This document shows, piece by piece, positions 10,728 to 38,780 of a stretch of DNA of 64,000 nt; position 1 is the first letter of the stretch, and each line of letters begins with the position of its first letter. The stretch spans positions 147,272-211,271 of the forward strand of contig JASGHK010000008.1 of the NCBI GenBank assembly GCA_049841135.1. Reading direction: 5' to 3'. This stretch comes from Myxococcales bacterium (lineage in GTDB: Bacteria > Myxococcota > Myxococcia > Myxococcales > UBA5297). Both the position numbers and the translations under genes were made by a program. Below the pieces are notes generated by a model, which saw only the letters and a program-made list of their open reading frames with translations, did no database searches and was not told the origin of the DNA.

Positions 10728-10728
10728 C

Positions 10729-16546: not shown

Positions 16547-17191
16547 CTAGAGGAAGCTCTCGGGGACGTAGACGATGTCCCCGGGCTGCATGAAGAAGTT
16601 CTTCTCCCGGCCCTCGCCGATCGACTCCACCGGCACCTTCACCTTGCGCTCGTCGCTCTGGAGCGTCTTCTCGTCGACCACGACCCGCGTGACGATCACC
16701 GAGTCCTTGGCAGCCATCTTGGTGAAGCCGTTGGCGAGCGTGACGGCCTGGATGATGGTCATCTGCGGCTCGAAGGCGAAGGTCCCCGGCTTCTGCACCT
16801 CGCCGAAGACGAACACCTTCTGCGAGTTGTACTCCTTGAGGAAGACGGTGACCTGTGGGCGCTTGAGGTAGCCGTTCTTGAGGCAGCTGGTGAGCAAGTC
16901 CACGAGCGCACTGGAGGATAGCCCCGAAACCTTGATGCGGCCGCAGAACGGGTAGTCGATGGTCCCCTCGGTCGCCACCCGGAACGCGCCCGACAGGTCG
17001 GGCTCCTGGTAGACCCGGACCTCGAGCACGTCGCCGACCCCCAGCGCCGAGTTGGCCACCGGCTGGCTGCGAGCCATCTGGTCGCGGGTCGAGTAGCTCG
17101 GGACTTCCCGGCCAGGCGTCTTGCAGGCTGGCGCGACCAGCACCACGAGCGAGGCGACGGCGAGCAGGAGTGCGGAGCGCGAGACGAGCAT
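16547..17191 (-). CDS. Outer-membrane polysaccharide export protein, short OPX/Wza-like (Poly_export + SLBB)
   Basis: Lipoprotein signal (LVAPAC). Poly_export/SLBB-type sequence ([20 protein letters not shown]…[11 protein letters not shown]…[12 protein letters not shown]). Lacks the C-terminal Wza helix. Confidence 0.7.
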
Positions 17192-17261
17192 CGAACTCAC
17201 AAACGCGGGCAGGAGCGCGGGGATTCCCGCGTGCGCGCCCAGCAAACGTTCGGCGGAAGGC

Positions 17262-18509: not shown

Positions 18510-18672
18510 CCGTAGTTGCGGCCTCAATCCTGGCTCCAAATCGGCAATGCGGCCCGCCCTAGCGGTGGCCCGGCAGCCACCGGACTTCCTCGACTTTTCT
18601 GCATCCCGCCCGGACCCTCGATCGAGGGCTTTCGCTGAAGCGCTGACTACTTAGCCCAACGCCGTCTCCTGA

Positions 18673-19230
18673 TCAACTGGTGGGACTGGCGGGTGGAGGG
18701 CGGTTCACCGGCGGCGGCGGCGGTGGCGTGACCGTTGGGTCGACCTGGGGCAGGTCGGGAGGCACCTCGACGATGACCTCCGTGTCCCCAGTCTCGAAAG
18801 CGAGCATGCCCACGCACTGCTCCGCCTCAGCCTTCAGCTGCTCGATCTTGGCGCGGGCGATGGTGACCTTGGTGTACTCGTGCTCGGCGGTCTGGGACTC
18901 CTTCTTGGCGACCGCCTCCTGCAGCGAGATGTCCGCCTGCTCGCTGATGCGCAGCAGGCCCTTGATGTTGGTCAGCTTCTCGTTGACGCAGTTGAGCTTG
19001 ACGACGTCCTTGCTCGCGCGTGCTTCCTCGAGCTTGCCGAGGACGACCTTCAGCCCCGCACGCATCTGCGTGAGGAACTCGGTCGACTTCTGCAGCTTCT
19101 CGGGGTCCGGGACGTTCTCGGCCTTCGCCTGTGTCTGGTCGGAGGTTGCAGGAGGCTCCGCGGCAACCGCGGTCCCCATCACCAGCCCCCCGGCCAGAAC
19201 CCCAGCGACGATCGACAGCCGCTTTCTCAT
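18673..19230 (-). CDS. Secreted coiled-coil protein with a Pro-rich C-terminus
   Basis: Signal peptide, heptad-rich central region, then PPPPPPVNRPPPASPTS tail. Confidence 0.45.
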   Translation of the reverse strand: MRKRLSIVAGVLAGGLVMGTAVAAEPPATSDQTQAKAENVPDPEKLQKSTEFLTQMRAGLKVVLGKLEEARASKDVVKLNCVNEKLTNIKGLLRISEQADISLQEAVAKKESQTAEHEYTKVTIARAKIEQLKAEAEQCVGMLAFETGDTEVIVEVPPDLPQVDPTVTPPPPPPVNRPPPASPTS

Positions 19231-25013: not shown

Positions 25014-25460
25014 CTACAGGCGAGCCGCAAGCCGGACGTTGGCGGCGCGCAGCCGCGACGAGAGCACCCGGGCGATATTCATGACCACGAAGGTGAACCC
25101 GTCCCGGTGGTGCTTGCGAAAGGCGGTGAAGTTCTCTGCCGTCAGCTGCAAGAGCACGCTGTCGATGCGGGCGCGGACGGTCGCCGACCGGTACTCCTTG
25201 TCGATGAGCGACATCTCGCCGAAGAAGGCCGGGGGCGCGAGGGTCTGGATGACCTTCAGCTCTCCGGCGTCGTTCTTGCGCAGCACCTCGACCTCGCCGC
25301 TGGCGATGACGTAGAGCGAGTCCCCCAGGTCGCCTTCTTCGAAGACGATCTCCCCGGCCGCGAACCGCCGGGGCCGGCTCATCTCCGCGGCCAGCTCCAG
25401 CTCCGCCGGCGAGACCATCTCGAAGAGCGGCGAGCTCTGCAGCACCTCGAACTTCTCCAT
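25014..25460 (-). CDS. Cyclic nucleotide-binding domain protein
   Basis: cNMP-binding fold: FAAGEIVFEEGDLGDSLYVIASGEVEV…FFGEMSLI. Confidence 0.65.
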   Translation of the reverse strand: MEKFEVLQSSPLFEMVSPAELELAAEMSRPRRFAAGEIVFEEGDLGDSLYVIASGEVEVLRKNDAGELKVIQTLAPPAFFGEMSLIDKEYRSATVRARIDSVLLQLTAENFTAFRKHHRDGFTFVVMNIARVLSSRLRAANVRLAARL

Positions 25461-25526: not shown

Positions 25527-26567
25527 TTACGCCGACTTGCGGTCCGTCTCCTCGCGCACCCGCCCCTTGCGCCCCTTGAGGAAGTACTCCTCGAAGCGCC
25601 GGTCGCCCTCCGCGTCCGAGGCCTTCACCTCCACGCCCGGCTCCAGGAACTCGACCCCGCGCTTCTGGTCGATGGAGTAGACCGCGAGCGGCTTGACCTC
25701 GATGTTGTAGTTCTGGGAGTCCTCCACCAGCGCCACGCACCAGGCGCGCTTGGGGTTCTCCTTCTGGCGGTAGTAGGCGAACTCGTCACCTTGGGCGCAG
25801 CCGAACCGCTCGCAGGCCTCCTTCATGGCCTCGGCCAGGCGGGTCTCGGCGGCCTCGCGCTCGCGGGCCACGGCGTCGGCCTCGGCGCGCAGCTTGTGCG
25901 CCCGCTGCTTGCGCTCCTCGGCCTGCTTGAAGAGCCGCTCGGCCTCGGCGCGCACCTTCTTGCCCTGGGCGCGGCGCTCGGCCATCAAGAGCGCCAGCTC
26001 CATCGAGCGGCCCCAGATACGTTCCACCTCTTCCCACAGGCGGTTCTTGACCGCGAGCTCGCGCTGATTCTCCTGCGACACCTGGGTCTGGATGCGCTCC
26101 ACGCGGCGCAGCTCGCCGTCGAGCCGGGCGATCTCCGCCTCGAGCTCCTTCTTCTGCGGACCGGCGGGAAGCGCGCTGGCCTTCTCCCGGCGCTGGGCGA
26201 TCTGCTGGCGGGTGACCTCGTTCTGCTTGTCGAGGGCGCAGGCGCGGTACCACTGCTCGCTGGCCTGCACGCGCTGCTGCTCGTAGTCGGCGACGACCTT
26301 GAAGCTGGTGTTGTCCAGCTCCTGGGCCTCGGCGGCCATCTTGGCAGCCGAGTCCTCGAGCTCGCCGGCGCGGTACAGCGTGTCGATGGCGTTCTTCTGG
26401 GCGAGCTCGGCGCGGAAGTCCATGAGCATCGCCTGGGAGAGCAGCTCGTCGTGCCGCTCGCGCGCGTCGTCGCGCTGGAGCCGCACCTTGGCGAGACCGT
26501 CCCACCATCCCTTGAACTCCGGGGAGGCGACGAGCTGCTTGATGTCGCTGAGCGCCTTGGCCTTCAT
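25527..26567 (-). CDS. Hypothetical coiled-coil protein
   Basis: 346-aa ORF with long heptad/charged helices. No enzymatic motif. Confidence 0.4.
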   Translation of the reverse strand: MKAKALSDIKQLVASPEFKGWWDGLAKVRLQRDDARERHDELLSQAMLMDFRAELAQKNAIDTLYRAGELEDSAAKMAAEAQELDNTSFKVVADYEQQRVQASEQWYRACALDKQNEVTRQQIAQRREKASALPAGPQKKELEAEIARLDGELRRVERIQTQVSQENQRELAVKNRLWEEVERIWGRSMELALLMAERRAQGKKVRAEAERLFKQAEERKQRAHKLRAEADAVAREREAAETRLAEAMKEACERFGCAQGDEFAYYRQKENPKRAWCVALVEDSQNYNIEVKPLAVYSIDQKRGVEFLEPGVEVKASDAEGDRRFEEYFLKGRKGRVREETDRKSA

Positions 26568-26689: not shown

Positions 26690-28070
26690 TCATCCGCCGC
26701 CGGCAGGCGCGAACACGAACGGATAGGCGACCGGGCACTCGTCCTCGGACTTGATGGGGAACATCCACATGCGGATGGTGTTGCGGATGCAGCTGACCAC
26801 CGCCTCGTTGTGCAGGGTGTCCTCCTCGACCTCGGGCATCCCCTGGATGCGTCCGGTGCCGCCGATGGTGAAGCGGATGACCACCTTGCCCTTCAGGCTG
26901 ACGTTGCGCTTGAGCTCGCGCTCGTAGCAGCTCTGGATGGCGCGCAGGTTGCGCTTGACGTAGCGGGCGATCGCGTCGCGGTCGCAGCTTGCCGAGTCGA
27001 CCTCGGGCGCCGACTCCGAGACGAACCCCCGGACTGCGGCCACTGCCTTCTTCTCGCCCAGACTACCCGCAGTGCCGGCGCCGCCGGTGGTCCCCAGGTC
27101 GCCGATGCCTGCCGCCTCGCCCGAGCCTCCGCCCTTGCGACCGCCGCCCTCGGCGAGGTTGTCGGAGTTGGCCACGCCGACCCCGCCGGCGCCTGCGAGC
27201 GCGCTGGCGATGTCCTGGCTGCCGGCCCCGCCGCCGAGCACGTCCTCGATGGCGCCGCCACCGGACCCGTCGCCGATGGCGCCGAGCATCTTGAGCAGGC
27301 CCTTGTTGGCGACGCCCTTCGCGATGGCCGCGCGCTTGGCCTCCTGGTCGACCGGGCCGGTCGGGCCCTTCGGCTTGGCGTTGCCCTTCGGCTTGTCGTC
27401 GCCCTTCTTGTCGTCGCCCTTCTTGTCCGCACCCGTGTCCGACTCGGCCACCTTGGGCTTGGGCGGCTCCTTGGGCTTGTCGGGGACGATCATCTTCACG
27501 AAGCGGTCGGGCAGATCCTCGAGGGTCGAGCTCGGGCTCTTCCTTCTTCTCGCGCAGGCTCACCGCTTGGACCGTGCCGAAGTCCACGAGCAGGCAGGCC
27601 ATGAGGATGCCGAAGAAGACCTTGTCGATGGTGTGCCAGATGGAGCCCTTGGCGATGTCGGGCAGGACCGGCTTGGGCGCCTCGGGGGGCGGGGTGACGA
27701 ACTGGAAGAGCAGCGTCACTTCGCCCAGGGCGATCTTGCCCTTGGCCTGTTCGCTGAGCGGGACCGCATAGGCGTCACGATCCTTCTTGGCCAGTCCCTG
27801 CGCCTTGAGCGCCGCGAAGTCGAGCTGGGTCTCCCCGCTGGAGAGCCGGCCCGCCATCTGGTCGGTGAAGCGCAGGACGTAGCCATTGCCCTTCATCTCG
27901 AAGACCGCGAACGACGGCGGCAGGTTCGAGACCGGGATGACGATGGTGTTCTTGGCGGACTGGCCGACCGTCACCGTGTCGCGCTTCTTGACGAGGCGCT
28001 CCTCGATGATCTTGCCGCCTTGGATGACGCCAATCCGTAGAATCTTTGCGGATTTCTGTTCCGTCGCCAT
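26690..28070 (-). CDS. FHA-like / TM / Gly-Pro-rich linker / TonB_C-like (AgmX/PglI C-terminal domain) protein, GltG/NfsG/PglI-like. Apparent frameshift near 27515.
   Basis: N-terminal FHA-like segment, TM helix IDKVFFGILMACLLVDFG, then after a frame switch (…EPELD | LEDLPDRFVKMIVPD…) a Gly-rich linker and a C-terminal TonB_C-like domain (SCYERELKRNVSLKGKVVIRFTIGGTGRI). Confidence 0.6.
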
Positions 28071-28167
28071 CTGTGCTCCACCTGCCTTCAGGGGCGTGGG
28101 AAAGCGTCCCCGGCTGCTTTGACCACATCGGGGCTCGGTTGGTTCCCGATAACCCCGCCCTGACGAT

Positions 28168-28416
28168 TTAGAACGGGTCCTTCTCGACGCTCTTGACCAC
28201 CTTGGGCAAGAAGCTCTCGGCGCGATCCAACTCGTCGAAGTTCAAGTTGGACCGCTGAAGGATGTAGAAAGCCTGGGGTTTTTGGATTCGGCCCTCGACC
28301 GTGATGGTCTCGAGCCGGATGACCTTCTTCTTCTTGACCTCGCCGGCATGGACTGCTGCCGGCATCGCCAGAGCGATGGCGACCGCGATGGCCCCGACTG
28401 TGCGAGCTTTCACCAC
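28168..28416 (-). CDS. Small secreted protein (GltF/NfsF-like position)
   Basis: 82 aa. Signal peptide MVKARTVGAIAVAIALAMPAAVHA. Confidence 0.4.
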   Translation of the reverse strand: MVKARTVGAIAVAIALAMPAAVHAGEVKKKKVIRLETITVEGRIQKPQAFYILQRSNLNFDELDRAESFLPKVVKSVEKDPF

Positions 28417-28428
28417 CGAAGTGCCTCC

Positions 28429-30451
28429 TCAGTCGTCGGAGATCTTGCCCGAAGAGGCGGGCTTGTTGGAAGGGGCTGCTGCGCCGTCGTCGTCGCCGAG
28501 CTTGCCGCCCGTGTTTCCAGCCGGGGGAGTCGTCGTCGTGTTCTTGGCCGGCTGAGCGCCGTCCTCGTCGTCGCCGAGCTTCGAAGCGGGCTTCGGCTGG
28601 TTCCTGGCTGCCTTCTCCGCGTCGGCCTTCGCCTTGGCATCCGCAGCCGCCTGCTTCTTGGCTTCAGCCGCGGCGGCCTTGTCGGCGTCCGCCTTCGCCT
28701 TGGCGTCGGCCGCGGCCTGCTTCTTCGCATCGGCCTCCGCCTTCTTGGCCTCGGCGGCAGCACGCTTCTCTTCGTCGGCCTTGGCCTTGGCGTCGGCAGC
28801 GGCCTGCTTCTTCGCGTCGGCCTCCGCCTTCTTGGCCTCGGCGGCAGCGCGCTTCTCGTCGTCGGCCTTCTGCTTGGCGTCGAGCGCCGCTTGCTTCTTG
28901 GCGTCGGCCTCGGCCTTCTTGGCGTCCTCGACGGCCTTCTTCTCGGCGGCGATGCGCGCCTTCTCGGCGTCCTCGGCGGCCTTCTTCTCGGCGGCGATAC
29001 GGGCGGCCTCGGCGTCGGCCTTGGCCTTCTCCTCGTCGGCCTTGCGCTTGGCCTCGGCCTCGGCCGCCTTCTTGGCGTCCTCCTCGGCCTTCTTCGCCTT
29101 GCGCAGCTTGTCCTTCTCCTCGCGCTCCTTGCGCCGCTTCTCCCGCTCGATCGCCTTGCTCGCGTCCTTGAGGTACTGCTCGACGGTGTCGTCGCCCTTG
29201 CCGGCTTCCTTGACCTTGGTGAAGTAGGCGATGGCCTCTTCCATGCGCTTGGTGATGTCGAGGTCCTTCATCTCCGCGTCCAGGTAGAGCACGCCGAAGT
29301 TGAAGTAGACGTCGGCCGCCAGCGCCGGATCGAGCTTGATCGCCTCGTTGTAGCGGGCCTTGGCCTTCTCGATCTCGCCCTGGCCGCGGTAGGCGTTGCC
29401 CAGGTTCAGGTGGGCGCTGGCGAACATCGGGGCGTACTTGACCGCGAGCTTCGAGCTCCTTGGCGGCTTCCTGGAAGTTTCCGGCGGCCAGGAGCATCGC
29501 GCCCAGGTTGTTGTGCGCCTCGGGGAAGTCCTCGCGCAGGTCGGCGGCGCTGCGGAACTTCTCCTTGGCGGCGGTCTTCTTCTTCTGCGACAGCAGGATG
29601 ACACCCTGCAGGTTGGGGATCTCCGCGCGGTTGATGTCGATGTGGCCGGCGTTGTCGAGCACCATCATCGCCAGCTCGGTGCGGCTCTGCTTGAAGTAGA
29701 TGTTGGCCAGCACGAACATCGCCGAGACGTTCTGCTCGTCGTTCTTGAGGACCTTCTTGCACTCCGCCGCGCCCTCGTCGAGCTTGTCCTGGGCGTAGAG
29801 CGTCCAGGCCAGGGCGTAGCGCAGGCCCAGCGAGTCCGGGGCCGCCTCGATCCGCTTCTTGAGCTCGGCTTCGCCCTGCAGCGCCCGTCCGGTGCGCACC
29901 AGCAGCTTGGCGTAGTTCTCGGCGGCGCGGTCGACCTTGGGCTTGACCCCGGCTTTCGCCTGCTTGTCGATGGCCTTGAGGTAGCTCTTCTCCGCCAGCG
30001 CGTCCTCGCCCTTGCGCTCGTAGAGGACGCCCAGGTTGTAGTCGGCCCAGTGCGTACGCGGGTCGTCGGTGGCTGCCTTCTGGAAGCGGGCGATGGCGCC
30101 GTCGGTGTCGCCCTTGACGGCCTCGCGCATTCCGTCGTCGAAGGCGTCGCGCACCTTGGAGTCGAGGACCTTCACCTCCTCCTTGGGCGGCTCCTTCCTC
30201 TCGGGCTTCTTCTCCTCCGGCTTCTGGTCGTCGGCCTTCTTGGACTCCGCCCCGGCGTCAGGCGTGGAGATCTCCTCCGGTCGATCGGGGATGTCGGGCG
30301 TACCGGCCTTGACCTCGATCGGGCCGGCATCGCCGGCATCGGGCGCGGCGAGAGGATCGTCTGGCTTGGTCTCGGTGGTGGCGCACGAAGCCGACCAGAG
30401 CCCGAGGCCGAGCAGGGAGCCCAACAAGGTCAGGCGGAGGGCGCTCATCAA
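28429..30451 (-). CDS. TPR-repeat lipoprotein with a C-terminal Ala/Lys-rich TolA-like repeat region. Apparent frameshift near 29450.
   Basis: Lipoprotein signal LGLGLWSASC. TPR helices (…ADYNLGVLYERKG…). The two ORFs join at …AAKELEA | AVKYAPMFASAHLNLGNAYRGQG…. C-terminal repeats are KKAEADAKKQAAADAKAKAD. Confidence 0.6.
28620..28990. repeat. ~87-bp tandem DNA repeats encoding Ala/Lys-rich 29-aa repeats inside the TPR lipoprotein gene
   Basis: Protein repeats KKAEADAKKQAAADAKAKADEEKRAAAEA x3-4 with near-identical DNA units. Confidence 0.5.
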
Positions 30452-33400
30452 TCCCGGTCCTCTCCGAGCTTGCCCGCGCCGGCGGGCTTCTTGACGGCCG
30501 GCCCTTCGACGGTCTCGACGAGCGACGACGGGTAGAACGTGGTGGGCACCGGCACCGAGCGCGCCTTCTTGAGGACCTTGAAGTCCGAGCGCAGACGGGC
30601 CAGCGACTCCTGCGTCCTGTCACACCACTCGTTGTCGACCAGTTGCTTCTCCAGACACTCCTTGGCGGTGGTCTGGTAGGCCTCGACGGCCTTCTCCTCC
30701 ATGCCGGTCACCTTCTCGACCAGGGTCGAGCGGTACATGTCGCAGCCCTCGTCGCCGTAGGCGGCCTTGATGTCCGGCGGGCACGGGCTCTCGACCAGCG
30801 TGGTGGCGAAGCGCTCCAGGACGAAGCCCTTCTTGTAGGACGCCGCGAGGATCCACTCGACGCTCTTGAACTGGTAGACCTCGCTGTAGCTGTCCTGCAG
30901 CTTCTTGGCCTCCGTCAGCTTGGCCTTGAACGCGTTCTCCAGCGCCCTGCCGCGGCCGGTGAGCTTGATGTCGTCCCACTTCTTGAACTCGACCTCGGCG
31001 AGCTGGAAGCGGGCGTAGCCGGCGGCGGAGGAGGCGGCCTCCTCTTTGCCGGTGAGGCCGCGCTTCTTGTACTCCTGCGTCGAGGTCAGGTACGAGGCGC
31101 GCGCGCCGGTCTCGTTGCGGAGCGTGCGCTGGCAGTCGCCGATGCGCTTGTAGGCGTCGACGACGCGCTCCGACTGCTTGGCGTCCTTGGAGAACTTCTT
31201 GATGAACTCGTTGAGCGACTGAATCTCACGGCCGCAGTCGTTCATCTTTTCGTAGATGGTCGCCGCCTTGTAGAGGTTCTTCGGCGCGTCCTCGTCGGAG
31301 GGATAGAGGTCGGCGAAGCGCGTGAACTGCTTGGCGGCGTCCTGGTAGCGCTGCAACGCCTCGAGCAGGCGGGCCAGGTTGTTGAGCGCGGCCGGGCGGT
31401 CCTTCGACTTGGCGTACTTGTCGACGAGCTCCTTGTAGCGCTCGACGGCCTTCTCGTGGTCGTAGCTGTTCTCGGCGTTGACCGCGACGCGGAAGAGCGC
31501 CACGTCGGCGAGGTCGGACTTCGGGTACTCCTTGTAGATGCGCTCGTAGAGCTTGAGGGCCGACTCGAACCGGCGGGCGTTCTCGCGGCAGACGGCGGCG
31601 TTGTTGAGGGCCTTGTCGGCGAACTGGTAGTCCTTGTTGCGCTCGACCAGGTCCTCGTAGAGCTTGCCGGCCTCGTCCCACTTCTTGTCGGCCATCAGCT
31701 TCTCGGCCTGCTTGAACATGGCGTTGTCGCCGAAGCCGCTCAGGATCTTGCCGGCGTCGCTCTTCGGGTCGACCTTCGACTTGCCGTCTTTGCCGCCCTT
31801 CAACAGGTCGTTGGTGAACTGCGTGACGGCGACCCAATCCTTGGTGATGAGGAAGGTCTCCAGGGTGAGGTTGGAGGCGAACTTGGCGAACTCGCTGCCC
31901 GGGTAGCTCTCGGCGATCTGCGCGAAGCGCCGACGCGCCTCCTCGAAGTCCTCGTAGACGTAGTAGGCCTCGGCCGCGCGGTAGGCGATCTTCGGGGCGC
32001 CCTCGTGCCTGGGCTGCATCTTGATGAAACCGTCGCCGGCGGAGACGAACTTCTTCCACAGGTCGGGCAGCGGCTTCTTCTCGACCGAGCGGCTCTCGGC
32101 CCAGTCGCGAGAGGTGAAGACCGGCTTGGTCTCGAGCACGGGCGGGCTGGCCTTCTGCTGCGCGTCGATCTCCTTCTGGTACGCGAGCACCGCGTTGTAG
32201 GCGGAGTCGGCCAGGAAGCGCGTGTCGGCGGTCGAGTCGCGCACCGCCTCGAAGTGCTTGGCGGCGGCGAGGAACTGCAGCGAGGAGTAGAGGCAGTCGG
32301 CGAGGTAGTACTCGAGCTCGTAGGCCACCTTCGAGTGCGGGAAGCGCTTGAGGTAGTCGTCGTAGCCGCGCGCGGCGATCTCGAACTCGCGCTTGGCCTG
32401 GTCGAGCTTGTCGTTCTTGACGTGCTGCAGCGCCTGCTGGTGGTGGTAGATGGCCGCCGAGTAGAGGCTCTTCTCCGAGAGCTCCTGCGCGCCCTTGATC
32501 ACGTCCGAGTTGGACTTGTTCTTCTCGTACCAGGGCGAACCGGGGGCGTAGTTCTTGACCGAGAGCTCGCGCTCTCCGAACGCGCCCTCGAAGTCGCGCT
32601 TGCCCTGCTCGTAGGCCTTGACGATCTTGTCCTGGATCTGCGGGGCGTTGGCGTTGGTCGGGTCCTTGGCCAGGTTCTGCTTGTAGGCGGCGATGGCGTC
32701 GTCCCACTTGGTCTGGTCGGAGTAGACGTCGCCCAGGCGCTTCCAGAGCTCGGCCTCCCAAGGCCGCAGCCCGATGCGCCCGAACAGCTCCTGCGCCTTG
32801 GCGATGGAGCCCCACTTCTCGTCGGCGAACGAGATGGCCATGTACTGCAGCGCCTCCGTCCGCAGGTCGCCGCCGGCTTCGTCCTCACCCTTCTCCTTGC
32901 TCTGCTGGTCGTAGAAGTCCACCAGCTGGACGAACGAGTCGACAGCCTTGTCGAAGTTGTCCATGCGGTAATACGTCCAGCCCAGCTTGTAGATGGCCTT
33001 GTCGTAGAGCGGGTGGTCCTTGAAGGTCGCCGCCTTGGCGTAGGCCTCGGCCGCGTTCTCGAGCGCCTGCGGCTCGCCCACCGCGTCGAAGTAGTACTCG
33101 CCCAGGCGGACCCAGGCCTCGGGCACGTAGCGCGAGGTGGGGTACATCGCGATGAGGCGCCGGAACGTGTCGCGGCTCTGCTCGAGCTCACCCTGCTTCT
33201 CCAGGCAGAAGCCGAGCAGGTAGCGCGAGGCGTCGTTGAACCGGTAATCGGGGAACTTGGTGATGAGGGTCTGGTAGAGCTCCACCGAGCGCTGGAAGCT
33301 CTGCTTGGGCTCGGGCGGCGCTGCGGCGAGCTTGCCGGACTCGACGAGCTTGAGCTGCTCCTCGTAATCCTTCATCGCCAGGTTGTAGTCGTCCTTGGTC

Positions 33401-33993
33401 TTCTCGTAGTAGAGCTCGGCCAGGCGGAACATCACGTCCGGCGTGTACTTGGGCTCGTCGGGGTAGCGCTGCAGGAACTCCTCGAACATCGCGATGGCGT
33501 CCAGGCGCTCCTTGCGCTCGAGCACCTCGATGTCGCTGATGGCCTTCTCGTAGCTGGCCTCGAGCCCCTTGCGCTTCTCCTCGTACTTCTTCTCGATGAG
33601 CAGCTGGATTTCCTTGCGGTACTCCTTGGCCTGCTCCTCGTACTCGCGCACCGTCTCGGCGAGGTCGGCGTACTCCCTCTCCTCGTCGGGGGTCTTGCCC
33701 ATGCCCTCAAAGCGGCCGCGCTCGCGGCGCTCGCTGGGGACGACCGTGGCCTTCTTCTCGTCGGTGGCGCGCTCGGCGTCCGACTTCACCTGCGGACCGG
33801 ACGCGGATGCGGCACCCTCCTGGCCATCCTTGCCCGGGCTTGCCGAGGCGTCCTTATTGGCCTCGTCACCCTTCTTTCCATCGGCCTTCTTGGCCTCCGC
33901 CTTGGCCGCGGCGGCGGGGGCCTGCGCCGGGAGGGCGAGGACGGCGGCGAAGGCGAGGGCGATGGCGAAGGCGAAGGCGAAGGGTCGTCGCAT
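30448..33993 (-). CDS. Large periplasmic TPR-repeat protein (1181 aa), GltD/NfsD/AgmU-like
   Basis: Signal peptide MRRPFAFAFAIALAFAAVLALPAQA. Dozens of TPR-like helical hairpins. ATGA overlap with the downstream gene. Confidence 0.65.
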   Translation of the reverse strand: MRRPFAFAFAIALAFAAVLALPAQAPAAAAKAEAKKADGKKGDEANKDASASPGKDGQEGAASASGPQVKSDAERATDEKKATVVPSERRERGRFEGMGKTPDEEREYADLAETVREYEEQAKEYRKEIQLLIEKKYEEKRKGLEASYEKAISDIEVLERKERLDAIAMFEEFLQRYPDEPKYTPDVMFRLAELYYEKTKDDYNLAMKDYEEQLKLVESGKLAAAPPEPKQSFQRSVELYQTLITKFPDYRFNDASRYLLGFCLEKQGELEQSRDTFRRLIAMYPTSRYVPEAWVRLGEYYFDAVGEPQALENAAEAYAKAATFKDHPLYDKAIYKLGWTYYRMDNFDKAVDSFVQLVDFYDQQSKEKGEDEAGGDLRTEALQYMAISFADEKWGSIAKAQELFGRIGLRPWEAELWKRLGDVYSDQTKWDDAIAAYKQNLAKDPTNANAPQIQDKIVKAYEQGKRDFEGAFGERELSVKNYAPGSPWYEKNKSNSDVIKGAQELSEKSLYSAAIYHHQQALQHVKNDKLDQAKREFEIAARGYDDYLKRFPHSKVAYELEYYLADCLYSSLQFLAAAKHFEAVRDSTADTRFLADSAYNAVLAYQKEIDAQQKASPPVLETKPVFTSRDWAESRSVEKKPLPDLWKKFVSAGDGFIKMQPRHEGAPKIAYRAAEAYYVYEDFEEARRRFAQIAESYPGSEFAKFASNLTLETFLITKDWVAVTQFTNDLLKGGKDGKSKVDPKSDAGKILSGFGDNAMFKQAEKLMADKKWDEAGKLYEDLVERNKDYQFADKALNNAAVCRENARRFESALKLYERIYKEYPKSDLADVALFRVAVNAENSYDHEKAVERYKELVDKYAKSKDRPAALNNLARLLEALQRYQDAAKQFTRFADLYPSDEDAPKNLYKAATIYEKMNDCGREIQSLNEFIKKFSKDAKQSERVVDAYKRIGDCQRTLRNETGARASYLTSTQEYKKRGLTGKEEAASSAAGYARFQLAEVEFKKWDDIKLTGRGRALENAFKAKLTEAKKLQDSYSEVYQFKSVEWILAASYKKGFVLERFATTLVESPCPPDIKAAYGDEGCDMYRSTLVEKVTGMEEKAVEAYQTTAKECLEKQLVDNEWCDRTQESLARLRSDFKVLKKARSVPVPTTFYPSSLVETVEGPAVKKPAGAGKLGEDRD

Positions 33994-34016
33994 CGGAAGA
34001 GTCTCAGCGGGGCGCG

Positions 34017-36385
34017 CTACTCCACGTCCTTGAGGACCTCCTTGAACTCGGTGTCCAGGCCCTTGAGCTCGCGGTCCTTCTGCTTGGCGAGGTTCTGGAT
34101 CTGAAGGGTCTTGTCCTGCTTGCGGGTCCAGGCCACGTCCACCAGGCCGACGTCGGCCTTGAGCACCAGGTCGTAGAACTGCCGGCGCACCCGCTTGAAG
34201 CTCTCGAAGGCGATGGAGCCGACCAGGTTCTGGGCGTTGCCGGCGACGGTGGTCACCTCGGCGTCATAGGCCTTGAGCAGCTCGGTCTCGGTTCGCACCT
34301 TCTCGCGCATCGCCTCGGCCTTGCGCTTGACCGCGTCGCGGATGGTGGCCTTGGCGTTCGCCGAGCGGGTCTGGAGGGCGGCGATGGTGGTCCGGACCTG
34401 GTCGACGTTGCTCAGCACCGCGCGGCTGGAGTCGGGCAGCTCGGTGCGCAGGCTGGCCAGGAGCTCCTTCTCCCGCTGCAGGGCCTTCTCGTAGCGCTCG
34501 CGCAAGGAAGCGTCGGCGGTGCCGGTGAGGCCCAGCTTGGCCTTCTCGTCGCGCATGGCCTTCTGCGTCACCTGCAGCTCTTCGCGCAGCCCGTCGGCGA
34601 TCTCGCGCTCCTTCTTCATGCGCTCGACCTCGTCCTTCTCGGTCTGGGCGTCGGGCTTGCGCTGGTCGCGGGTGTCGGCCAGGTACTTCTCTACCGCCGC
34701 GAGCACGGCGTACAGGCTCTCGACCTGCAGGCTCAGGCGGTACGCCTCCTGGTCGAGCCGGGTGATCTCCTGGCTCATCCGCATCCGTCGCGCCTCGAGG
34801 TCCTGCTCGCTCTTGGGCAGCGACTGGAACTGGGCGTCCAGCCGCTCGCGCTCCGCCTTGACCTGCTCGAGCTTCCTTCTGCAGGTCGCCCAGCCGCGTG
34901 CCGCCCACCAGGCGCTGCTCGACCGCGAGCAACTGCTTCTCGACCTGCGCCAGCGAGCTGTCCACGGCGTCCGCGCGGTTGAGGCCCTCCTGGTACTGCG
35001 GGAAGAAGCTCGAGCGCGCGCTTGTCCAGCACCTCGAACAGGCGGGTGGCGACCTCGTTGGACTCGATGACGCCCTTCTTGCTGGCGTCGATGTCCCCGG
35101 TCATGCGCACCGCGTCGGCGACGTCGCGGCTGGTGGTGGCCCACTTGACGGCGATGGGCGGCAGGAAGGCGGTGATGTCGAAGGTCTTGCCCGACTCGGC
35201 GATGACCTGCTGGAAGTAGCGCACCGGGTCGGGGTGCGCCTTCAGGCGGCCGTCGATGTTGTCGTACACCTCGAGGTAGGTGTTGATGACCGCGGTGTAG
35301 CTCTCGTTGGCCTCCTGGTACTTGCCCAGCTTGAGCAGCAGGTGCCCCTGGAGGATGCGAGCCTCGGGCGCGAGCACCGAGTCGGGTGCGGCGAGCAGCA
35401 GCTTCTCGCAAGCCTGGTTGGCCTTCTCGTACTCCGCGGGCCCACCGGTCTTGGCCCGCCGCACGTGCGTCCAGGCGATCTCGTAGAGCGCGTCGACGAA
35501 GTTGTCGGAGTTGTAGTCGATCTCCTGGTACCGGTCGATCGCCTCGGTGTACTTGCCGAGCTCGAAGTAGACGCGACCCAGCGACAGGTTCGCCTGCTCG
35601 TGGGTCTTCTTCTCGCGGGGGCTGTTCGCCGGAATCTTGAGCACGCGCTCGAAGGCGGCGGAGGCCGCGGCCATGTCTCCCGACTGCACGGCGAGCACGC
35701 CCAGGAAGTAGGCAGCCTGCATCGCATAGGCGCCGCCCGCGTCGGCCACCGGGCCAAAGACGGCCTGGGCGCGCGCGATCCGGTCCTTGTCCGGCACGTC
35801 GGTGCGGCGGAAGAGCCACTTGGCGTAGACGTAGGCGAGCTCGGCAGGCAGCGCGCCGCCCGGGCCCTTGGCCTGTTCGATGTACTGGTCGATGCCGGTG
35901 AACTCGTTGATGCGCCCGCTGATCTCCAGGTAGCGGCCCAGGGCGTCCCGGTAGTGGTCGCCCCGCTGGTTCATGTGCTCGCGAAAGTAGAGCCGCGCGC
36001 CCAGGTAGTTCTGCTGCTGGTAGAGCGCCTCCGCGAGCATATAGAGCGCGTTGGCGTACTCGCGCATGCCGCGGAAGGTGGCGCTGCCGACGAGGTCGTA
36101 GAAGAGGACCGAGGCCGCCTGGTAGTTGTTGAGCAGGAACTGGATCTCGGCGTCCGAGTAGCGGCGCTTGAGCGCCTCCTGCTCACCAGGCTCGTTCTTG
36201 TAGGTGTACTGCTGCTCCACCACCTGCAGCCGCGCCTCGATCTGCCCGAGGTCCTTGCGCACCCGCTCGACCTCTGCGCTCTCCGCTGCCGTGTCGACCG
36301 GCGCCTGTGGCTGCGCCGCCCTCACCTGACTGGCCGGGGCCAGCGCCGTGAGCGCGAGGACGAGCGATGCGAGGGAGAGACGCAT
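34017..36385 (-). CDS. Secreted TPR plus long C-terminal coiled-coil protein. Two or more apparent frameshifts (~34868 and ~34968).
   Basis: Signal peptide MRLSLASLVLALTALAPASQVRA. TPR-like N-terminal half. Three ORF fragments (34775.., 34264.., 34017..) join into one continuous coiled-coil. Confidence 0.55.
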
Positions 36386-36399
36386 GGACCTTGGGGTGC

Positions 36400-37194
36400 C
36401 TACTTGGTCTCGGCCGCCGCAGCGGGCTTGTCGGTGGGCGTAGCGTCCGTCGCCTTGGTGTCGGAGGCCGGAGCCTGGGAACGTCCTTCGGCGCCCTTGT
36501 CCTTCTTCATGGCGGCGTCCGTGGAGCGCTCCAAGTCATAGCGGACGGAGGGGCGGTCCTTCAGGTCGGTGGTGATGCCGCCCTTCTCGTGGCCGACCAC
36601 CTTGACCGTGGTGATCTTCCCGGGCTCGGCGTCGAAGGTGTAGCTCGACTGCACCTTGAACTTGTAGCCCTCGAGGTAGCTGAAGATGCCGAAGCCGTGG
36701 CCTCGGAACTGAAGCTTGACCGCGATTTGGTGCTGGCCAGGGACGATGCGGCCGTTGAAGATCTCGAACTCTTCCTTCTTGTCGAGGTCGCCGTCGACGT
36801 CGACCTTGGTGTAGACCGGCGCACCGTCGAGCGCGTAGGCCACCGATTCCAAGTAGAAGGAGCTGCCCATCTCGTTGCGGTGGACGAGCACGGCCTTCGC
36901 GCCCTGGCTGATGGAGCCACCGCCGAGGACCGACTCCTGCAGCAGCAGCAGGCGGGCCTTGGTCCTGAAGATCTTCTCCTTGAGGTCGTTGACCTGCTCC
37001 TCCATCGTCTTGACGCGGATGGAGAACTCCTCGTCGGAGGTCTGCGGCACGGGTGCCGCCGCGGGTGCGGCCGCCGCAGCCGGGTCGGAGGCAGGAGCGG
37101 GAGTTGCCGGAGCGGGCGTCTCACCAGCCTGGGCGAGAGTCCCCCAGGAGAGGAGAGCGATGGCTGCGAATACGGTCAGGCCTTGGGCTTTCAA
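36400..37194 (-). CDS. Secreted hypothetical protein (coiled-coil N-terminus plus beta-rich domain)
   Basis: Probable TTG start with an AAGGA RBS. Signal peptide MKAQGLTVFAAIALLSWGTLAQA. Confidence 0.4.
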   Translation of the reverse strand: MKAQGLTVFAAIALLSWGTLAQAGETPAPATPAPASDPAAAAAPAAAPVPQTSDEEFSIRVKTMEEQVNDLKEKIFRTKARLLLLQESVLGGGSISQGAKAVLVHRNEMGSSFYLESVAYALDGAPVYTKVDVDGDLDKKEEFEIFNGRIVPGQHQIAVKLQFRGHGFGIFSYLEGYKFKVQSSYTFDAEPGKITTVKVVGHEKGGITTDLKDRPSVRYDLERSTDAAMKKDKGAEGRSQAPASDTKATDATPTDKPAAAAETK

Positions 37195-37651
37195 TGTTGC
37201 GTCCTTTGGAATGTCTCGGGCTGCATTGGCCGAGCTTCCCCCTACTGCAAAGGCCGCCAGGAATCGGGACCTTCTACCATCCGGCAAGACCCACTGTCAA
37301 TTTGCGAAACGCCCAAAAGGTCCCCTGCTTTCGAGCACTTCCAAGCAGCCCCCGCTTGCTTGCCAGCCCTGACCGACGGAGGTCGCACCCCCCTTGGTTG
37401 CCGGCGCCACCCAGCATGATCAGGGTTGGTCTTGGGCAGGTAGGACACGGCAAGGGCACGCACGGTCGGCGACTTCATCAGGCGGGCGCTCGGTTGGCTG
37501 CACGGCATCTCCGCTCCCAGACAGTCCAGGGCCTCCAGCCCACAGAGGCTACCCATGGATGTACCCGGCCACGACTTTTTGGATCGCGCCTGGGGTTTCG
37601 AACCTCGACCACCCGAACCAATCTGATCCCCAAGCCGACCCCGCAAATGAC

Positions 37652-37683
37652 GAGCCCCGCCGCGCCTCAGCGCTGCGGGGCTC
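37652..37683 (-). terminator. Hairpin 20 nt downstream of the mglA stop; possible operon terminator
   Basis: 9-bp perfect stem GAGCCCCGC…GCGGGGCTC with a 14-nt loop, followed on the transcribed strand by GTCATTTGCGG (weak U-tract). Confidence 0.3.
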
Positions 37684-37703
37684 ACCGATGAGTCGGATTT
37701 GTC

Positions 37704-38291
37704 TCAGCCGCCCTTCTTCAGCTCGGTCAGGACGAGCTTGGCGACGCTCTTGAGGGTGTCGAAGACGCCCACGCCGGTCGGCGCGACGGCCTGGTACTCC
37801 GGGACGTTGCGCGGATTCAGCAGCCGGCGCAGTTCGTCGACCGTCGCCACGTTCGGCAGGTCCCGCTTGTTGTACTGCACGACGAAGGGGACCTTGTTGA
37901 GGTCGTAGCCCTGCTCGGCCAGGTTGACCCGGAGGTTCTCCATCGACTCGATGTTCGCCTCCATGCGCTCGATTTGGCTGTCGGCGACGAAGACCACACC
38001 ATCGACGCCCTTGAGGATGAGCTTGCGGGAGGCGTCGTAGAAGACCTGGCCTGGCACCGTGTACAGGTGGAAGCGGGTCTTGAACCCGCGGATCTCGCCG
38101 AGCGAGAGCGGCAGGAAGTCGAAGAAGAGCGTGCGCTCGGTCTCCGTGGCGAGGGAGATCATCTTCCCCTTCGCCTCGGGGTTGGTCTTTGCGTAGACGT
38201 ACTGGAGATTCGTCGTCTTACCGCACAGGCCAGGCCCGTAGTACACGATCTTGCAGTTGATCTCGCGCGACGAGTAGTTGATGAACGACAT
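37704..38291 (-). CDS. mglA: Ras-like motility/polarity GTPase MglA
   Basis: 195 aa. [29 protein letters not shown]… is near-identical to the Myxococcus MglA signature (P-loop [13 protein letters not shown]). Confidence 0.95.
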
Positions 38292-38300
38292 GGGGCGTGC

Positions 38301-38780
38301 CTACTCGCTGAAAAGGTTGTCGATGTCCGAGTCGGTGATCTCTGCGAAAGGCGAGCCCGAGCCAGGCGCTTCCACCTTCTTGAGGAGCCCCTCAAAGATC
38401 TTGGTGAGCTCGTCGCAGGCCTTGCGCGCCCTGAGGCGCACCAGGCCAATCCGGTTCTTGTCCTCGAAGATGATTACGAGGATGACCCGGCTGGCGACGA
38501 GGTTGATGTAGATGCAGTCCTTGTCGCCTTCGTGGAACTGGGTCGTGAAGTCCTTCTCGCCGATGAGCTTGGCGAGGCCGCCGGTGGCCGCGATGTTGCC
38601 AGCCGTGAGCGAGGCCAAGGAGGTCGTGTCCAGGTCCTGGGTCTGACCCGTCGCCGCGATCAGTTGTCCGTTCTTGTCGACGAGGAAGACGACCTTGGCG
38701 TTGGCGTCCTTGGTGAGGCGCTCGCAAACGACGGTGATCTGATTGAACTCCTCTTCGTACATCACCATCTGCGGGTTCAT
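38301..38780 (-). CDS. mglB: MglB, Roadblock/LC7-family GAP for MglA
   Basis: 159 aa. Roadblock fold sequence immediately upstream of mglA, matching the conserved mglBA operon order. Confidence 0.9.
   Translation of the reverse strand: MNPQMVMYEEEFNQITVVCERLTKDANAKVVFLVDKNGQLIAATGQTQDLDTTSLASLTAGNIAATGGLAKLIGEKDFTTQFHEGDKDCIYINLVASRVILVIIFEDKNRIGLVRLRARKACDELTKIFEGLLKKVEAPGSGSPFAEITDSDIDNLFSE

What the first reader, a model, noticed from the sequence alone, without database searches (positions are those of the whole stretch)
26690..38780. Glt/Nfs-like envelope-complex gene cluster immediately downstream of mglBA
A contiguous same-strand array encodes mglB-mglA, a secreted 265-aa protein, a secreted TPR plus coiled-coil protein, a 1181-aa periplasmic TPR protein, a TPR lipoprotein with a TolA-like tail, an 82-aa secreted protein and an FHA-TM-TonB_C (AgmX/PglI-type) protein. 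In domain content and order (large TPR, TPR, small, FHA/TonB_C) this mirrors the GltD-E-F-G / NfsD-E-F-G modules of myxobacterial gliding and spore-coat machines, whose activity MglA controls. Direct genomic linkage of the MglA/MglB switch to such a module is not the arrangement I know from M. xanthus and may define a distinct paralogous machine.
Basis: inference. Interest (0 to 1): 0.6.

Follow-up and report, generated by a model that had tools for sequence, protein, structure and literature searches.

The report
Known Glt-like "G4" cluster beside mglBA
This is the counterpart, in an uncultured myxobacterium, of the "G4" copy of the gliding-machine genes that also sits right after mglBA in Myxococcus xanthus. 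The gene layout is therefore not new, although what this machine does is still unknown.

Summary
The gene array is real. It lies on the minus strand, from mglB (38780) to the stop of the GltG-like gene (26690). These look like sequence errors.

Four products hit M. xanthus Glt-specific NCBIfam models in collinear order (GltC, GltE, GltF/CglF, GltG), all far below the orthologue cut-offs. The M. xanthus proteins MXAN_1923-1919 give the same sub-threshold pattern.

I fetched the M. xanthus DK1622 locus. It reads mglB-mglA-MXAN_1924...1919-cNMP protein-secreted protein-WzpB-WzaB, collinear with window 16547-38780 at 38-88% identity.

So this is the orthologue of the "G4" Glt paralogue named by Luciano et al. 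2011. They reported no motility defect for a polar mutant and left its function unknown. The claim that M. xanthus lacks this arrangement is wrong.

Additions from this work:
- The module also includes a transthyretin-like secreted protein (C). In several lineages it includes a cytoplasmic coiled-coil protein (I) and a cNMP-binding protein (J).
- Distant versions carry TolQ/TolR-type motor genes inside the cluster.
- A class-3 polysaccharide-export pair (Wzp/Wza) recurs next to it.

The parts
38301..38780 (-). mglB (159 aa), Roadblock/LC7-type GTPase-activating protein of MglA
   Evidence: NCBIfam MglB model, E = 5.9e-26. It is 72% identical to M. xanthus MglB. A promoter-like site lies at 38878-38851.
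37704..38291 (-). mglA (195 aa), Ras-like polarity GTPase
   Evidence: 88% identical to M. xanthus MglA over 195 aa. 598 relatives were found in genome contigs.
37195..37703 (-). 509-nt non-coding gap between mglA and C. It holds a G+C hairpin just after the mglA stop (37680-37655) and a TTGACA-N18-TAGAAG promoter-like site (37300-37271).
   Evidence: Sequence inspection. No Rfam family matches here. That C-K form a transcription unit separate from mglBA is an inference.
36400..37194 (-). C: secreted 264-aa protein with a signal peptide, a Pro/Ala linker, a long helix and a transthyretin-like beta-sandwich. It is the orthologue of MXAN_1924.
34017..36385 (-). D: secreted TPR plus coiled-coil protein (788 aa after removing two inserted bases near 35005 and 34870). 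GltC-like; orthologue of MXAN_1923.
   Evidence: NCBIfam GltC gives 50.9 bits against a cut-off of 450; MXAN_1923 gives 67.4. D is 42% identical to MXAN_1923. The frameshifts are shown.
30448..33993 (-). E: 1181-aa secreted TPR protein with YbgF-like repeats. GltD-like; orthologue of MXAN_1922.
   Evidence: 49% identical over 1075 aa to the M. xanthus DK1622 1111-aa protein. PMC3169522 names MXAN_1922 as the gltD homologue of G4. YbgF-type repeats score 155 bits.
28429..30448 (-). F: TPR lipoprotein-like protein (672 aa after removing one inserted base near 29450). It has a lineage-specific Lys/Ala/Glu-rich TolA-like tail. GltE-like; orthologue of MXAN_1921. Its start overlaps the E stop by 1 nt.
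   Evidence: NCBIfam GltE gives 109 bits against a cut-off of 225; MXAN_1921 gives 121. TolA model E = 3.7e-4. The tail repeats lie at 28678-29094. The E/F junction is shown.
28168..28416 (-). G: 82-aa secreted protein ending in ...PF. GltF/CglF-like; orthologue of MXAN_1920.
   Evidence: NCBIfam CglF gives 24.5 bits against a cut-off of 90; MXAN_1920 gives 33.3. G is 79% identical over 53 aa to M. xanthus.
26690..28070 (-). H: bitopic inner-membrane protein (459 aa after removing one inserted base near 27527). It has a cytoplasmic FHA-fold domain, one TM helix (about residues 144-172), a low-complexity linker and a TonB_C-like AgmX/PglI domain. GltG-like; orthologue of MXAN_1919.
25527..26567 (-). 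I: 346-aa cytoplasmic coiled-coil protein, outside the finding's limits. It follows H in several lineages and is absent from M. xanthus.
   Evidence: No family matches. Orthologues sit directly after H in L083 (60%), L086 (38%) and L090 (29%).
25014..25460 (-). J: 148-aa stand-alone cyclic-nucleotide-binding domain protein. Orthologue of the gene after MXAN_1919 (MXAN_1918 by count).
   Evidence: CRP-type cNMP-binding hits. Identity is 61% to M. xanthus and 53-72% in L083, L086 and L090.
19436..24946 (-). K: 1836-aa secreted protein with an FG-GAP beta-propeller and many Ig/PKD-like repeats. It is a recurrent neighbour of the module in some lineages and absent from M. xanthus.
   Evidence: Pfam FG-GAP_3, PKD, fn3 and Ig_2. 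K-like genes follow the module in L083, L084 and L090.
16547..19230 (-). Three genes. A secreted coiled-coil protein (19230-18673) is 63% identical to the M. xanthus 203-aa protein. A WzpB-like outer-membrane beta-barrel lies at about 18512-17262. A WzaB-like class-3 OPX lipoprotein lies at about 17191-16547.
   Evidence: Pfam Poly_export plus SLBB. The barrel is 38% and the OPX protein 60% identical to M. xanthus MXAN_1916 and MXAN_1915. Gene identities come from PMC9603273. The same trio or pair follows the module in Stigmatella, L089 and L091.

Best explanation
Window 26690-38780 encodes the MglB/MglA polarity switch followed by the orthologue of the M. xanthus 'G4' cluster (MXAN_1924-1919). 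G4 is an old paralogue of the Agl-Glt gliding and Agl-Nfs spore-coat envelope complexes.

Shown here: orthology and gene content.

Inferred working model:
- H is a TonB/TolA-like inner-membrane transducer with a cytoplasmic FHA-fold domain.
- A TolQ/TolR-type proton channel energises H. That channel is encoded elsewhere in this genome, because the cluster has lost the motor genes that distant versions still carry between G and H.
- H passes the work to a periplasmic scaffold made of the TPR proteins D, E and F, the small protein G and the transthyretin-like protein C.
- The module has no GltA/B/H/K-type outer-membrane parts and is not needed for gliding in M. xanthus.
- Its most likely outer-membrane partner is the neighbouring Wzp barrel/Wza OPX pair, which is the BPS exporter in M. 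xanthus. The machine would then handle or position a secreted polysaccharide, as Nfs does for spore-coat polymer.
- The cytoplasmic proteins I and J (cNMP-binding), and possibly MglA, would act on the cytoplasmic face.

Likelihoods: G4 orthologue about 0.95; pmf-driven TonB/TolA-like transduction about 0.6; link to the Wzp/Wza polysaccharide exporter about 0.3; direct control by MglA about 0.25.
For: - Collinearity with M. xanthus DK1622 across 12 genes at 38-88% identity. Hyalangium, Stigmatella and 9 of 67 informative mglA loci show the same layout.
- Window proteins and M. xanthus G4 proteins give the same sub-cut-off scores against the Glt equivalog models: GltC 51/67, GltE 109/121, CglF 24.5/33, GltG 186/158 bits.
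- PMC3169522 defines G4 through MXAN_1922, and its supplementary table lists MXAN_1919-1923 as glt homologues.
- Motor coupling: five independent distant versions of the module carry MotA_ExbB plus two ExbD genes inside it (L086, L087, L089, L090, L091). H has a TonB_C-like domain. AglR-GltG interaction is published (PMC3169522).
- Polysaccharide link: a Wzp-like barrel, with or without Wza, lies downstream of the module in the window, M. xanthus, Stigmatella, L089 and L091. The last two share only about 28-34% identity with E.
- Tight gene junctions from C to K, from a 1-nt overlap to 122 nt, suggest one operon-like array.
Against: - No motor genes (MotA_ExbB, ExbD) turned up among the window ORFs I scanned, which were the main high-GC3 ORFs and not every ORF. 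The energy source in this organism is therefore assumed.
- A polar insertion in MXAN_1922 changed neither gliding nor soft-agar spreading (PMC3169522). This argues against an essential role in BPS export under laboratory conditions.
- The Wzp/Wza linkage is missing in Hyalangium, L084 and L086, and part of it may be inherited synteny.
- mglBA is not adjacent in L084, L086, L089 or L091, and the window has a 509-nt gap with a hairpin between mglA and C.
- I could not fetch M. xanthus GltD, NfsD or the G5 proteins. Orthology to G4 rests on synteny and model scores, not on a full reciprocal search or a tree.
- The C and H structure models have only moderate confidence (pLDDT 64 and 71).
Confidence: 0.8

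Rival explanations
1. The adjacency to mglBA is functional. On this view the module is a distinct machine whose assembly or polarity is directly switched by MglA-GTP.
For: mglBA-C-D-E-F-G-H adjacency is kept across lineages whose E proteins share only 26-50% identity (L006, L007, L019, L027, L090, M. xanthus). L090 keeps mglBA next to a version that still has its motor genes. MglA is known to bind the Agl-Glt complex (PMC3169522, PMC4508894).
Against: Four lineages have the module without mglBA nearby (L084, L086, L089, L091). Cystobacter keeps mglBA without the module. Of 67 informative mglA loci, 58 lack it. The window has a 509-nt gap, a hairpin and a promoter-like site between mglA and C. 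No GltJ/AglZ-type MglA-binding domain was found in the cluster.
Confidence: 0.25
2. The cluster is this organism's canonical gliding machinery, that is, the orthologue of the M. xanthus G1/G2 glt genes and not a paralogue.
For: The best-scoring named NCBIfam models for D, F, G and H are the Glt models. The source genome's other loci could not be inspected.
Against: All scores are 2- to 9-fold below the equivalog cut-offs and match those of the M. xanthus G4 paralogues. H lacks about 200 N-terminal residues of GltG, with the model match starting at position 204. There are no GltH, GltI, GltJ, GltA/B or GltK genes nearby. The cluster is collinear with MXAN_1915-1926, not with MXAN_4862-4870.
Confidence: 0.03
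3. The cluster is an Nfs-type spore-coat assembly machine (nfsC-G orthologue).
For: The gene order C'-D'-E'-F'-G' equals nfsC-G (PMC3858216). A polysaccharide exporter is encoded nearby.
Against: PMC3169522 treats nfs (G3, MXAN_3371-3378) and G4 as different clusters, and glt/nfs as a recent duplication. No nfsA, nfsB or nfsH-like genes flank the array. The syntenic M. xanthus locus is G4. No Nfs sequences were available for a direct comparison.
Confidence: 0.03
4. The cluster is a decaying pseudogene array, because three of its genes carry frameshifts.
For: Four +1 frameshifts lie in D, F and H. Cystobacter has lost the six genes altogether.
Against: Removing one base at each site restores full-length ORFs with no stops. 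Third-position GC stays at 0.9-1.0 on both sides of each shift. The close relatives L001 (D and F only; it ends inside H) and L083 (all three) lack the insertions. The same GAGCTC-to-GAAGCTC/GAGCTTC insertion also accompanies reading-frame changes (judged by third-position GC) in unrelated genes at 41079, 41866 and 51658, and the comparison with L001 confirms the extra base at 41079. The probable source is a MAG with a 1.65-Mb contig.
Confidence: 0.05
5. These are generic TPR and Tol-Pal-like envelope genes with no specific relation to Glt/Nfs.
For: E and D hit YbgF/CpoB and BamD-type TPR models, and no GltD-specific model hit E. NCBI annotates the proteins only as TPR proteins.
Against: Four separate products hit four different Glt-specific models in the collinear order, nearly full length. 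A GltG/GltJ-specific C-terminal domain scores above its cut-off. Published work assigns the M. xanthus orthologues to the glt family.
Confidence: 0.02

Closest known systems
M. xanthus G4 cluster (MXAN_1919-1923, plus MXAN_1924), next to mglBA (MXAN_1925/1926); Luciano et al. 2011, PMC3169522
   Same: Gene order and orientation are the same, with the same position directly after mglA. Identity is 41-79% for the six proteins. Scores against the Glt models are sub-threshold in the same way. The downstream cNMP-binding gene, the secreted coiled-coil protein, WzpB and WzaB are also shared.
   Different: The window adds I (coiled-coil protein) and K (1836-aa FG-GAP protein) between H and the Wzp/Wza genes. 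F carries an extra TolA-like tail of about 200 aa. The mglA-C gap is 509 nt against 121 nt in M. xanthus. Four apparent frameshifts are present.
Agl-Glt gliding (focal adhesion) machinery of M. xanthus: GltC, GltD, GltE, GltF, GltG
   Same: The protein types are homologous. They include large periplasmic TPR proteins, a TPR lipoprotein, a small secreted protein and an FHA/TM/TonB_C-like transducer that in Glt binds the TolQ-like AglR.
   Different: Scores fall far below the equivalog cut-offs. H lacks about 200 N-terminal residues of GltG. There are no GltA/B/H/K outer-membrane parts and no GltI/J. The M. xanthus G4 mutant glides normally. The module has components that Glt lacks: C, I and J.
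Agl-Nfs spore-coat assembly machinery (NfsA-H)
   Same: The core genes sit in one cluster in the order C-D-E-F-G. Both have a paralogous relation to Glt, and both may be associated with a Wza-exported polysaccharide.
   Different: There are no NfsA, NfsB or NfsH counterparts. PMC3169522 lists nfs as a separate cluster (G3).
Ancestral 'core complex' of Luciano et al. (gltC, D, E, G with aglR, Q, S in one operon) and, more generally, Tol-Pal/TonB-ExbBD systems
   Same: Distant versions of this module (L086, L089, L090, L091) have MotA_ExbB plus two ExbD genes inside the cluster. H has a TonB_C-like domain, and E has YbgF/CpoB-like TPR units.
   Different: The window cluster itself has no motor genes. 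There are no TolB or Pal equivalents. The scaffold proteins are much larger than those of Tol-Pal.
Class-3 OPX/18-stranded barrel translocon WzaB/WzpB of the M. xanthus BPS pathway (PMC7310880, PMC9603273, PMC12819527)
   Same: Orthologues (60% and 38% identity) lie on the same strand downstream of the module, as in M. xanthus and Stigmatella. A barrel with or without an OPX gene follows the module in two deep lineages (L089, L091).
   Different: These are neighbours and not homologues of the finding. None of the papers I found and read links them to G4. The rest of the BPS pathway is encoded elsewhere in M. xanthus.

Membership tests
M. xanthus G4 (MXAN_1919-1924) orthologous group | Collinear six-gene order: C, GltC', GltD', GltE', GltF', GltG' | tested here: met
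   tblastn of the window proteins against the DK1622 locus L082 gives collinear hits at 69, 42, 49, 41, 79 and 50% identity.
M. xanthus G4 (MXAN_1919-1924) orthologous group | Position directly downstream of mglB-mglA | tested here: met
   True for the window, M. xanthus, Hyalangium, Stigmatella, and L001, L005, L008, L017, L021 and L090.
M. xanthus G4 (MXAN_1919-1924) orthologous group | Closer to the G4 proteins than to the G1 (Glt), G3 (Nfs) or G5 paralogues, by reciprocal best hit or phylogeny | tested here: inconclusive
   Only an indirect test was possible. Bit scores against the Glt equivalog models equal those of the M. xanthus G4 proteins. GltD, NfsD and G5 sequences could not be obtained, so no tree or reciprocal search was run.
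Agl-Glt gliding machinery (equivalogs of GltC/E/F/G) | Score at or above the NCBIfam equivalog cut-off | tested here: not met
   GltC 50.9 against 450, GltE 109.1 against 225, CglF 24.5 against 90, GltG 186.1 against 650.
Agl-Glt gliding machinery (equivalogs of GltC/E/F/G) | Presence of the outer-membrane and extra parts GltA, B, H, K, I and J | tested here: not met
   None was recognised among the ORFs I scanned in the 64-kb window. The rest of the genome is not available.
GltG/PglI-type transducer (H) | AgmX/PglI (TonB_C-like) C-terminal domain | tested here: met
   NF033768 scores 93.8 bits against a cut-off of 40. Pfam TonB_C hits 4 of 5 orthologues. Weak TonB hits appear in the PDB.
GltG/PglI-type transducer (H) | Cytoplasmic FHA domain | tested here: inconclusive
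GltG/PglI-type transducer (H) | Single TM helix between the two domains | tested here: met
   One hydrophobic 19-mer window spans residues 144-172.
TolQR/ExbBD-powered 'core complex' | MotA_ExbB and ExbD genes in the same cluster | tested here: not met
   The G-H gap in the window is 97 nt with no motor gene, and no motor domain was found among the window ORFs I scanned. Homologous clusters L086, L087, L089, L090 and L091 do carry them.
Nfs spore-coat machinery | Eight-gene nfsA-H set with NfsA/B/H; closest similarity to NfsD/E/G | not tested
   No Nfs sequences could be fetched with the tools. Gene content differs, with no A, B or H-like genes next to the array.

The most novel reading that the evidence does not exclude
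The G4-type module is a third working form of the Agl-Glt/Nfs motor family and is dedicated to polysaccharide export. On this reading a TolQ/TolR-driven TonB-like transducer (H) and its TPR scaffold (C-G) couple to the class-3 OPX/barrel translocon Wzp/Wza, which is the BPS exporter in M. xanthus. Cytoplasmic inputs would come from a cNMP-binding protein (J), a coiled-coil protein (I) and the adjacent MglA/MglB switch. The versions that still hold the motor genes next to mglBA (L090) would be the closest living relatives of the ancestral core from which the gliding motor evolved.
Probability: 0.25. Interest if true: 0.7.

Novelty: new member of a known kind. Interest (0 to 1): 0.3.

Why it matters
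The G4 paralogue of the myxobacterial gliding machine has had no assigned function since 2011. This window shows that it is conserved well outside Myxococcus and still sits beside the MglA/MglB polarity switch.

Comparison with relatives gives testable leads. The module has extra conserved parts (C, I, J). Older versions carry their own TolQ/TolR-type motor. A polysaccharide-export pair is a recurrent neighbour. [quoted passage not shown]

As it stands, the finding is a correct recognition of a known gene arrangement and not a new one.

Tried and rejected
- I searched for the source genome by exact protein look-up. The E protein had no 100% match. Protein C matched MGC4122102.1 at 100%, but its contig was not retrievable.
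- I tried to obtain true GltD, NfsD and G5 sequences for a reciprocal test. I fetched the contexts of seven distant E-like cluster representatives (P0408, P0375, P0458, P0435, P0349 and P0366, plus P0014). All turned out to be G4-type modules, not G1 or G3.
- Pfam and NCBIfam found no family for C, I, the secreted coiled-coil protein or the barrel.
- PDB sequence searches with orthologue profiles of C and H gave only coiled-coil noise and weak TonB hits.
- The terminator and promoter scan of 24900-39100 was no better than shuffled sequence, with 14 terminator-like sites against 11.6 expected.
- An extra 152-aa ORF between mglA and C in relative L083 has no counterpart in the window.
- I first suspected that GAAGCTC/GAGCTTC always marks an error. 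It does not. 24 of the 32 sites show no frame change by the third-position-GC test.
- I considered the large gene upstream (40365-46332) as an AglZ-like MglA partner. It has a receiver-like N-terminus and a J domain but no AglZ match.

Full report
**Observation**

The array lies on the minus strand. ORF listing and translation give these genes:
- mglB, 38780-38301
- mglA, 38291-37704
- C, a secreted protein, 37194-36400
- E, an 1181-aa TPR protein, 33993-30448
- G, an 82-aa secreted protein, 28416-28168

- A third-position-GC frame plot and three-frame translations show that D (36385-34017) changes frame twice, near 35005 and 34870.
- F (30448-28429) changes frame once, near 29450.
- H (28070-26690) changes frame once, near 27527.
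- Each change is a +1 shift. Deleting one base at each site gives clean ORFs of 788, 672 and 459 aa.
- Orthologues from relatives align across the junctions in abutting frames.

**Are the frameshifts real?**

Probably not.
- Against the close relative L001 (about 88% DNA identity), the window has one extra base at 29453, 34873 and 35006, and also at 41083 in an unrelated gene. Each lies at the same motif, GAGCTC read as GAAGCTC or GAGCTTC.
- Frame changes at this motif also occur at 41866 and 51658.
- Third-position GC stays at 0.9-1.0 on both sides of each shift.
- Protein C is 100% identical to MGC4122102.1, from a Myxococcales MAG with a 1.65-Mb contig. This fits a long-read assembly with systematic indels.
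- I therefore treat the genes as intact in the organism, with about 0.05 left for true decay.

**What the proteins are**

Scores against the NCBIfam models built for the M. xanthus gliding proteins:

| Model | Window protein | E-value | Window bits | M. xanthus G4 bits | Cut-off |
|---|---|---|---|---|---|
| GltC | D | 1e-13 | 50.9 | 67.4 | 450 |
| GltE | F | 2.5e-31 | 109 | 121.1 | 225 |
| CglF/GltF | G | 2e-5 | 24.5 | 33.3 | 90 |
| GltG | H | 1e-54 | 186 | 158.5 | 650 |
| AgmX/PglI C-terminal domain | H | 5.3e-27 | 93.8 | 106.8 | 40 |

- All four Glt-model hits are far below the equivalog cut-offs. Only the AgmX/PglI domain passes its cut-off.
- E hits only YbgF/BamD-type TPR models.
- Pfam adds TPR hits for D and nothing for C, G, H or I.
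- The 'TonB_C' label for H is supported by the domain hit above and by Pfam TonB_C in 4 of 5 orthologues.

**Comparison with M. xanthus**

- Luciano et al. 2011 (PMC3169522) describe paralogous clusters G3 (= nfs), G4 and G5, and give MXAN_1922 as the gltD homologue of G4. Polar mutants had no motility defect and the function was left unknown.
- Their supplementary table lists MXAN_1919-1923 as glt homologues.
- MglA and MglB are MXAN_1925 and MXAN_1926 (PMC3441718).
- I reached the M. xanthus orthologue of E through Hyalangium and fetched its locus from CP000113.1.
- That locus reads: mglB, mglA, 234 aa, 809 aa TPR, 1111 aa TPR, 490 aa, 91 aa, 447 aa, 148-aa cNMP-binding protein, 203 aa, 421 aa (WzpB, MXAN_1916), 204-aa Poly_export protein (WzaB, MXAN_1915; PMC9603273).
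- The window proteins hit this locus collinearly:

| Window protein | Identity to M. xanthus |
|---|---|
| mglB | 72% |
| mglA | 88% |
| C | 69% |
| D | 42% |
| E | 49% |
| F | 41% |
| G | 79% |
| H | 50% |
| J | 61% |
| secreted coiled-coil protein | 63% |
| barrel (Wzp) | 38% |
| OPX protein (Wza) | 60% |

- I and K have no counterpart there.
- The M. xanthus G4 proteins give the same sub-threshold pattern against the Glt models as the window proteins (table above).
- The window cluster is therefore the orthologue of G4, and the mglBA linkage is the ordinary M. xanthus arrangement. Its novelty premise is wrong.

**Distribution**

- Of the 80 best mglA loci from species-representative genomes, 67 have at least 2.5 kb downstream of mglA. 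Nine of those carry the module there, and three shorter loci show its first gene.
- The loci with the module are labelled Myxococcaceae, Anaeromyxobacteraceae or simply Myxococcales/Myxococcota.
- Sorangium, Minicystis, Labilithrix, Kofleriaceae, Geobacter and Nitrospirota loci lack it.
- Cystobacter has mglBA followed directly by J, with C-H missing.
- The E family is very large, with 1132 cluster representatives at E<=1e-30.

**Wider anatomy of the module**

I fetched the contexts of distant E-like representatives:

| Locus | Identity to E | Gene order |
|---|---|---|
| L083 | 76% | mglBA-C...H-I-J-K, as in the window |
| L084 | 57% | C...H-K-like; relA upstream instead of mglBA |
| L090 | 41% | mglB-mglA-C-D-E-F-G-MotA_ExbB-ExbD-ExbD-H-I-J-K-like |
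| L086 | 29% | C-(862 aa)-D-E-F-G-MotA_ExbB-ExbD-ExbD-H-I-J |
| L089 | 28% | C-D-E-F-G-MotA_ExbB-ExbD-ExbD-H-barrel-Poly_export |
| L091 | 34% | C-D-E-F-G-H-MotA_ExbB-ExbD-ExbD-coiled-coil protein-barrel |
| L087 | 33% | D-E-F-G-MotA_ExbB, then the contig ends |

Three things follow.
- C belongs to the module. I and J recur in several lineages, so the finding's lower limit should move to at least 25014.
- The module is a TolQ/TolR-type motor system. The window, Myxococcus, Stigmatella and Hyalangium versions have lost the motor genes from the cluster. The G-H gap in the window is only 97 nt.
- A Wzp-like barrel, with or without a Wza-like OPX gene, recurs downstream in the window, M. xanthus, Stigmatella, L089 and L091.

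**How it most likely works**

Everything in this section is inferred, except where marked.
- H is a TonB/TolA-like transducer. A proton-channel complex drives it. AglR-GltG binding is published for the paralogue, and motor genes sit inside distant versions.
- In this genome the motor must be supplied from elsewhere.
- H would pass force or a conformational signal to the periplasmic TPR scaffold (D, E, F), with C and G.
- No GltA/B/H/K-type outer-membrane parts are present, and the M. xanthus mutant glides. The module is therefore not a gliding motor.
- The recurrent Wzp/Wza neighbours suggest a role with a secreted polysaccharide, which is BPS in M. xanthus (PMC7310880). This would parallel Nfs acting on spore-coat polymer (PMC3858216).
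- In the full-text library I searched, no paper mentions both WzaB/WzpB and GltD/AglR, and the four papers I read on these proteins do not link them to G4.
- Against the idea: the polar MXAN_1922 insertion had no soft-agar spreading defect, and the linkage is absent in Hyalangium, L084 and L086.
- MglA control is possible but unproven. Adjacency is old but not universal. The window has a 509-nt gap with a hairpin (37680-37655) and a promoter-like site (37300-37271) before C. C to K are tightly packed, from a 1-nt overlap to 122 nt.

**Limits**

- I could not obtain GltD, NfsD or G5 sequences, so there is no reciprocal whole-proteome test and no tree.
- The source genome's other loci are unknown.
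- The structure models have moderate confidence.

**Verdict**

This is a real, well-conserved gene cluster and a correct recognition of Glt paralogy. It is the already described G4 arrangement, so the linkage itself is not new. The remaining interest is that G4 has no known function, and the comparative anatomy found here gives specific experiments to run.

Noticed in passing
window 29446, 34869, 35005, 41079, 41866, 51658: Single-base insertions inside GAGCTC (read as GAAGCTC or GAGCTTC) coincide with reading-frame changes in six places, three in the G4 genes and three in unrelated genes. For the four sites covered by the comparison, the close relative L001 lacks the extra base. This looks like a systematic sequencing or assembly error, for example at a modified motif in a long-read MAG.
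   Followed up: partly
window 370-12200, next to 13260-14426: This stretch has a lower third-position GC and carries mobile-element genes. They are a Toprim protein (370-1971, -), an int-alpA RNA (3180-3249, -, Rfam 37.1 bits), a serine recombinase (3417-4784, +), an Abi_2 abortive-infection protein (5275-6351, -) and a collagen-repeat protein (11546-12196, +). It sits beside a ComM-like Mg-chelatase gene and is possibly an integrated element.
   Followed up: partly
window 40365-46332 (-): A large gene has a receiver-like N-terminus, tandem repeats of 114 nt (4.5 copies, 45172-45687) and 78 nt (11.4 copies, 94% matches, 43804-44695), and a C-terminal J (DnaJ) domain. Frame changes interrupt it. 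No AglZ or FrzS model matched.
   Followed up: partly
L011 10001-11146 (Cystobacter fuscus) and L020: In Cystobacter, mglB-mglA is followed directly by the orthologue of the cNMP-binding gene J (60-62% identity). The six module genes C-H and the Wzp/Wza genes are absent from the locus. This looks like a natural deletion or relocation of G4.
   Followed up: partly
window 28678-29094 (within F): The TolA-like tail of F is encoded by imperfect 42- to 87-nt tandem repeats giving Lys/Ala/Glu/Asp-rich units. The tail is present in the close relatives L001 and L083 (664 and 611 aa) but not in M. xanthus MXAN_1921 (490 aa).
   Followed up: partly
window 19436-24946 (-) and L084 18016-21846, L090 20522-23666: A giant secreted FG-GAP beta-propeller protein with many Ig/PKD-like repeats (K) follows the module in several lineages but not in M. 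xanthus. It could be a surface adhesin or a cargo of the system.
   Followed up: partly
window 51402-56406 (-): A Ser/Thr kinase with a c-di-GMP-binding motif hit (51402-52889) and a CarboxypepD_reg-repeat protein (53218-56406) recall the kinase/FecR-like/CarboxypepD_reg trio upstream of mglB in M. xanthus, Stigmatella and Hyalangium. Here def, nth and other genes separate them from mglB.
   Followed up: no
PMC3169522 supplementary table (file 5): In the stored text of the table, the pairing of MXAN_1919-1923 with glt genes runs in reverse order (for example the 91-aa MXAN_1920 is paired with gltD). This conflicts with the main text and with protein sizes, so it is probably a table or extraction slip.
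   Followed up: no
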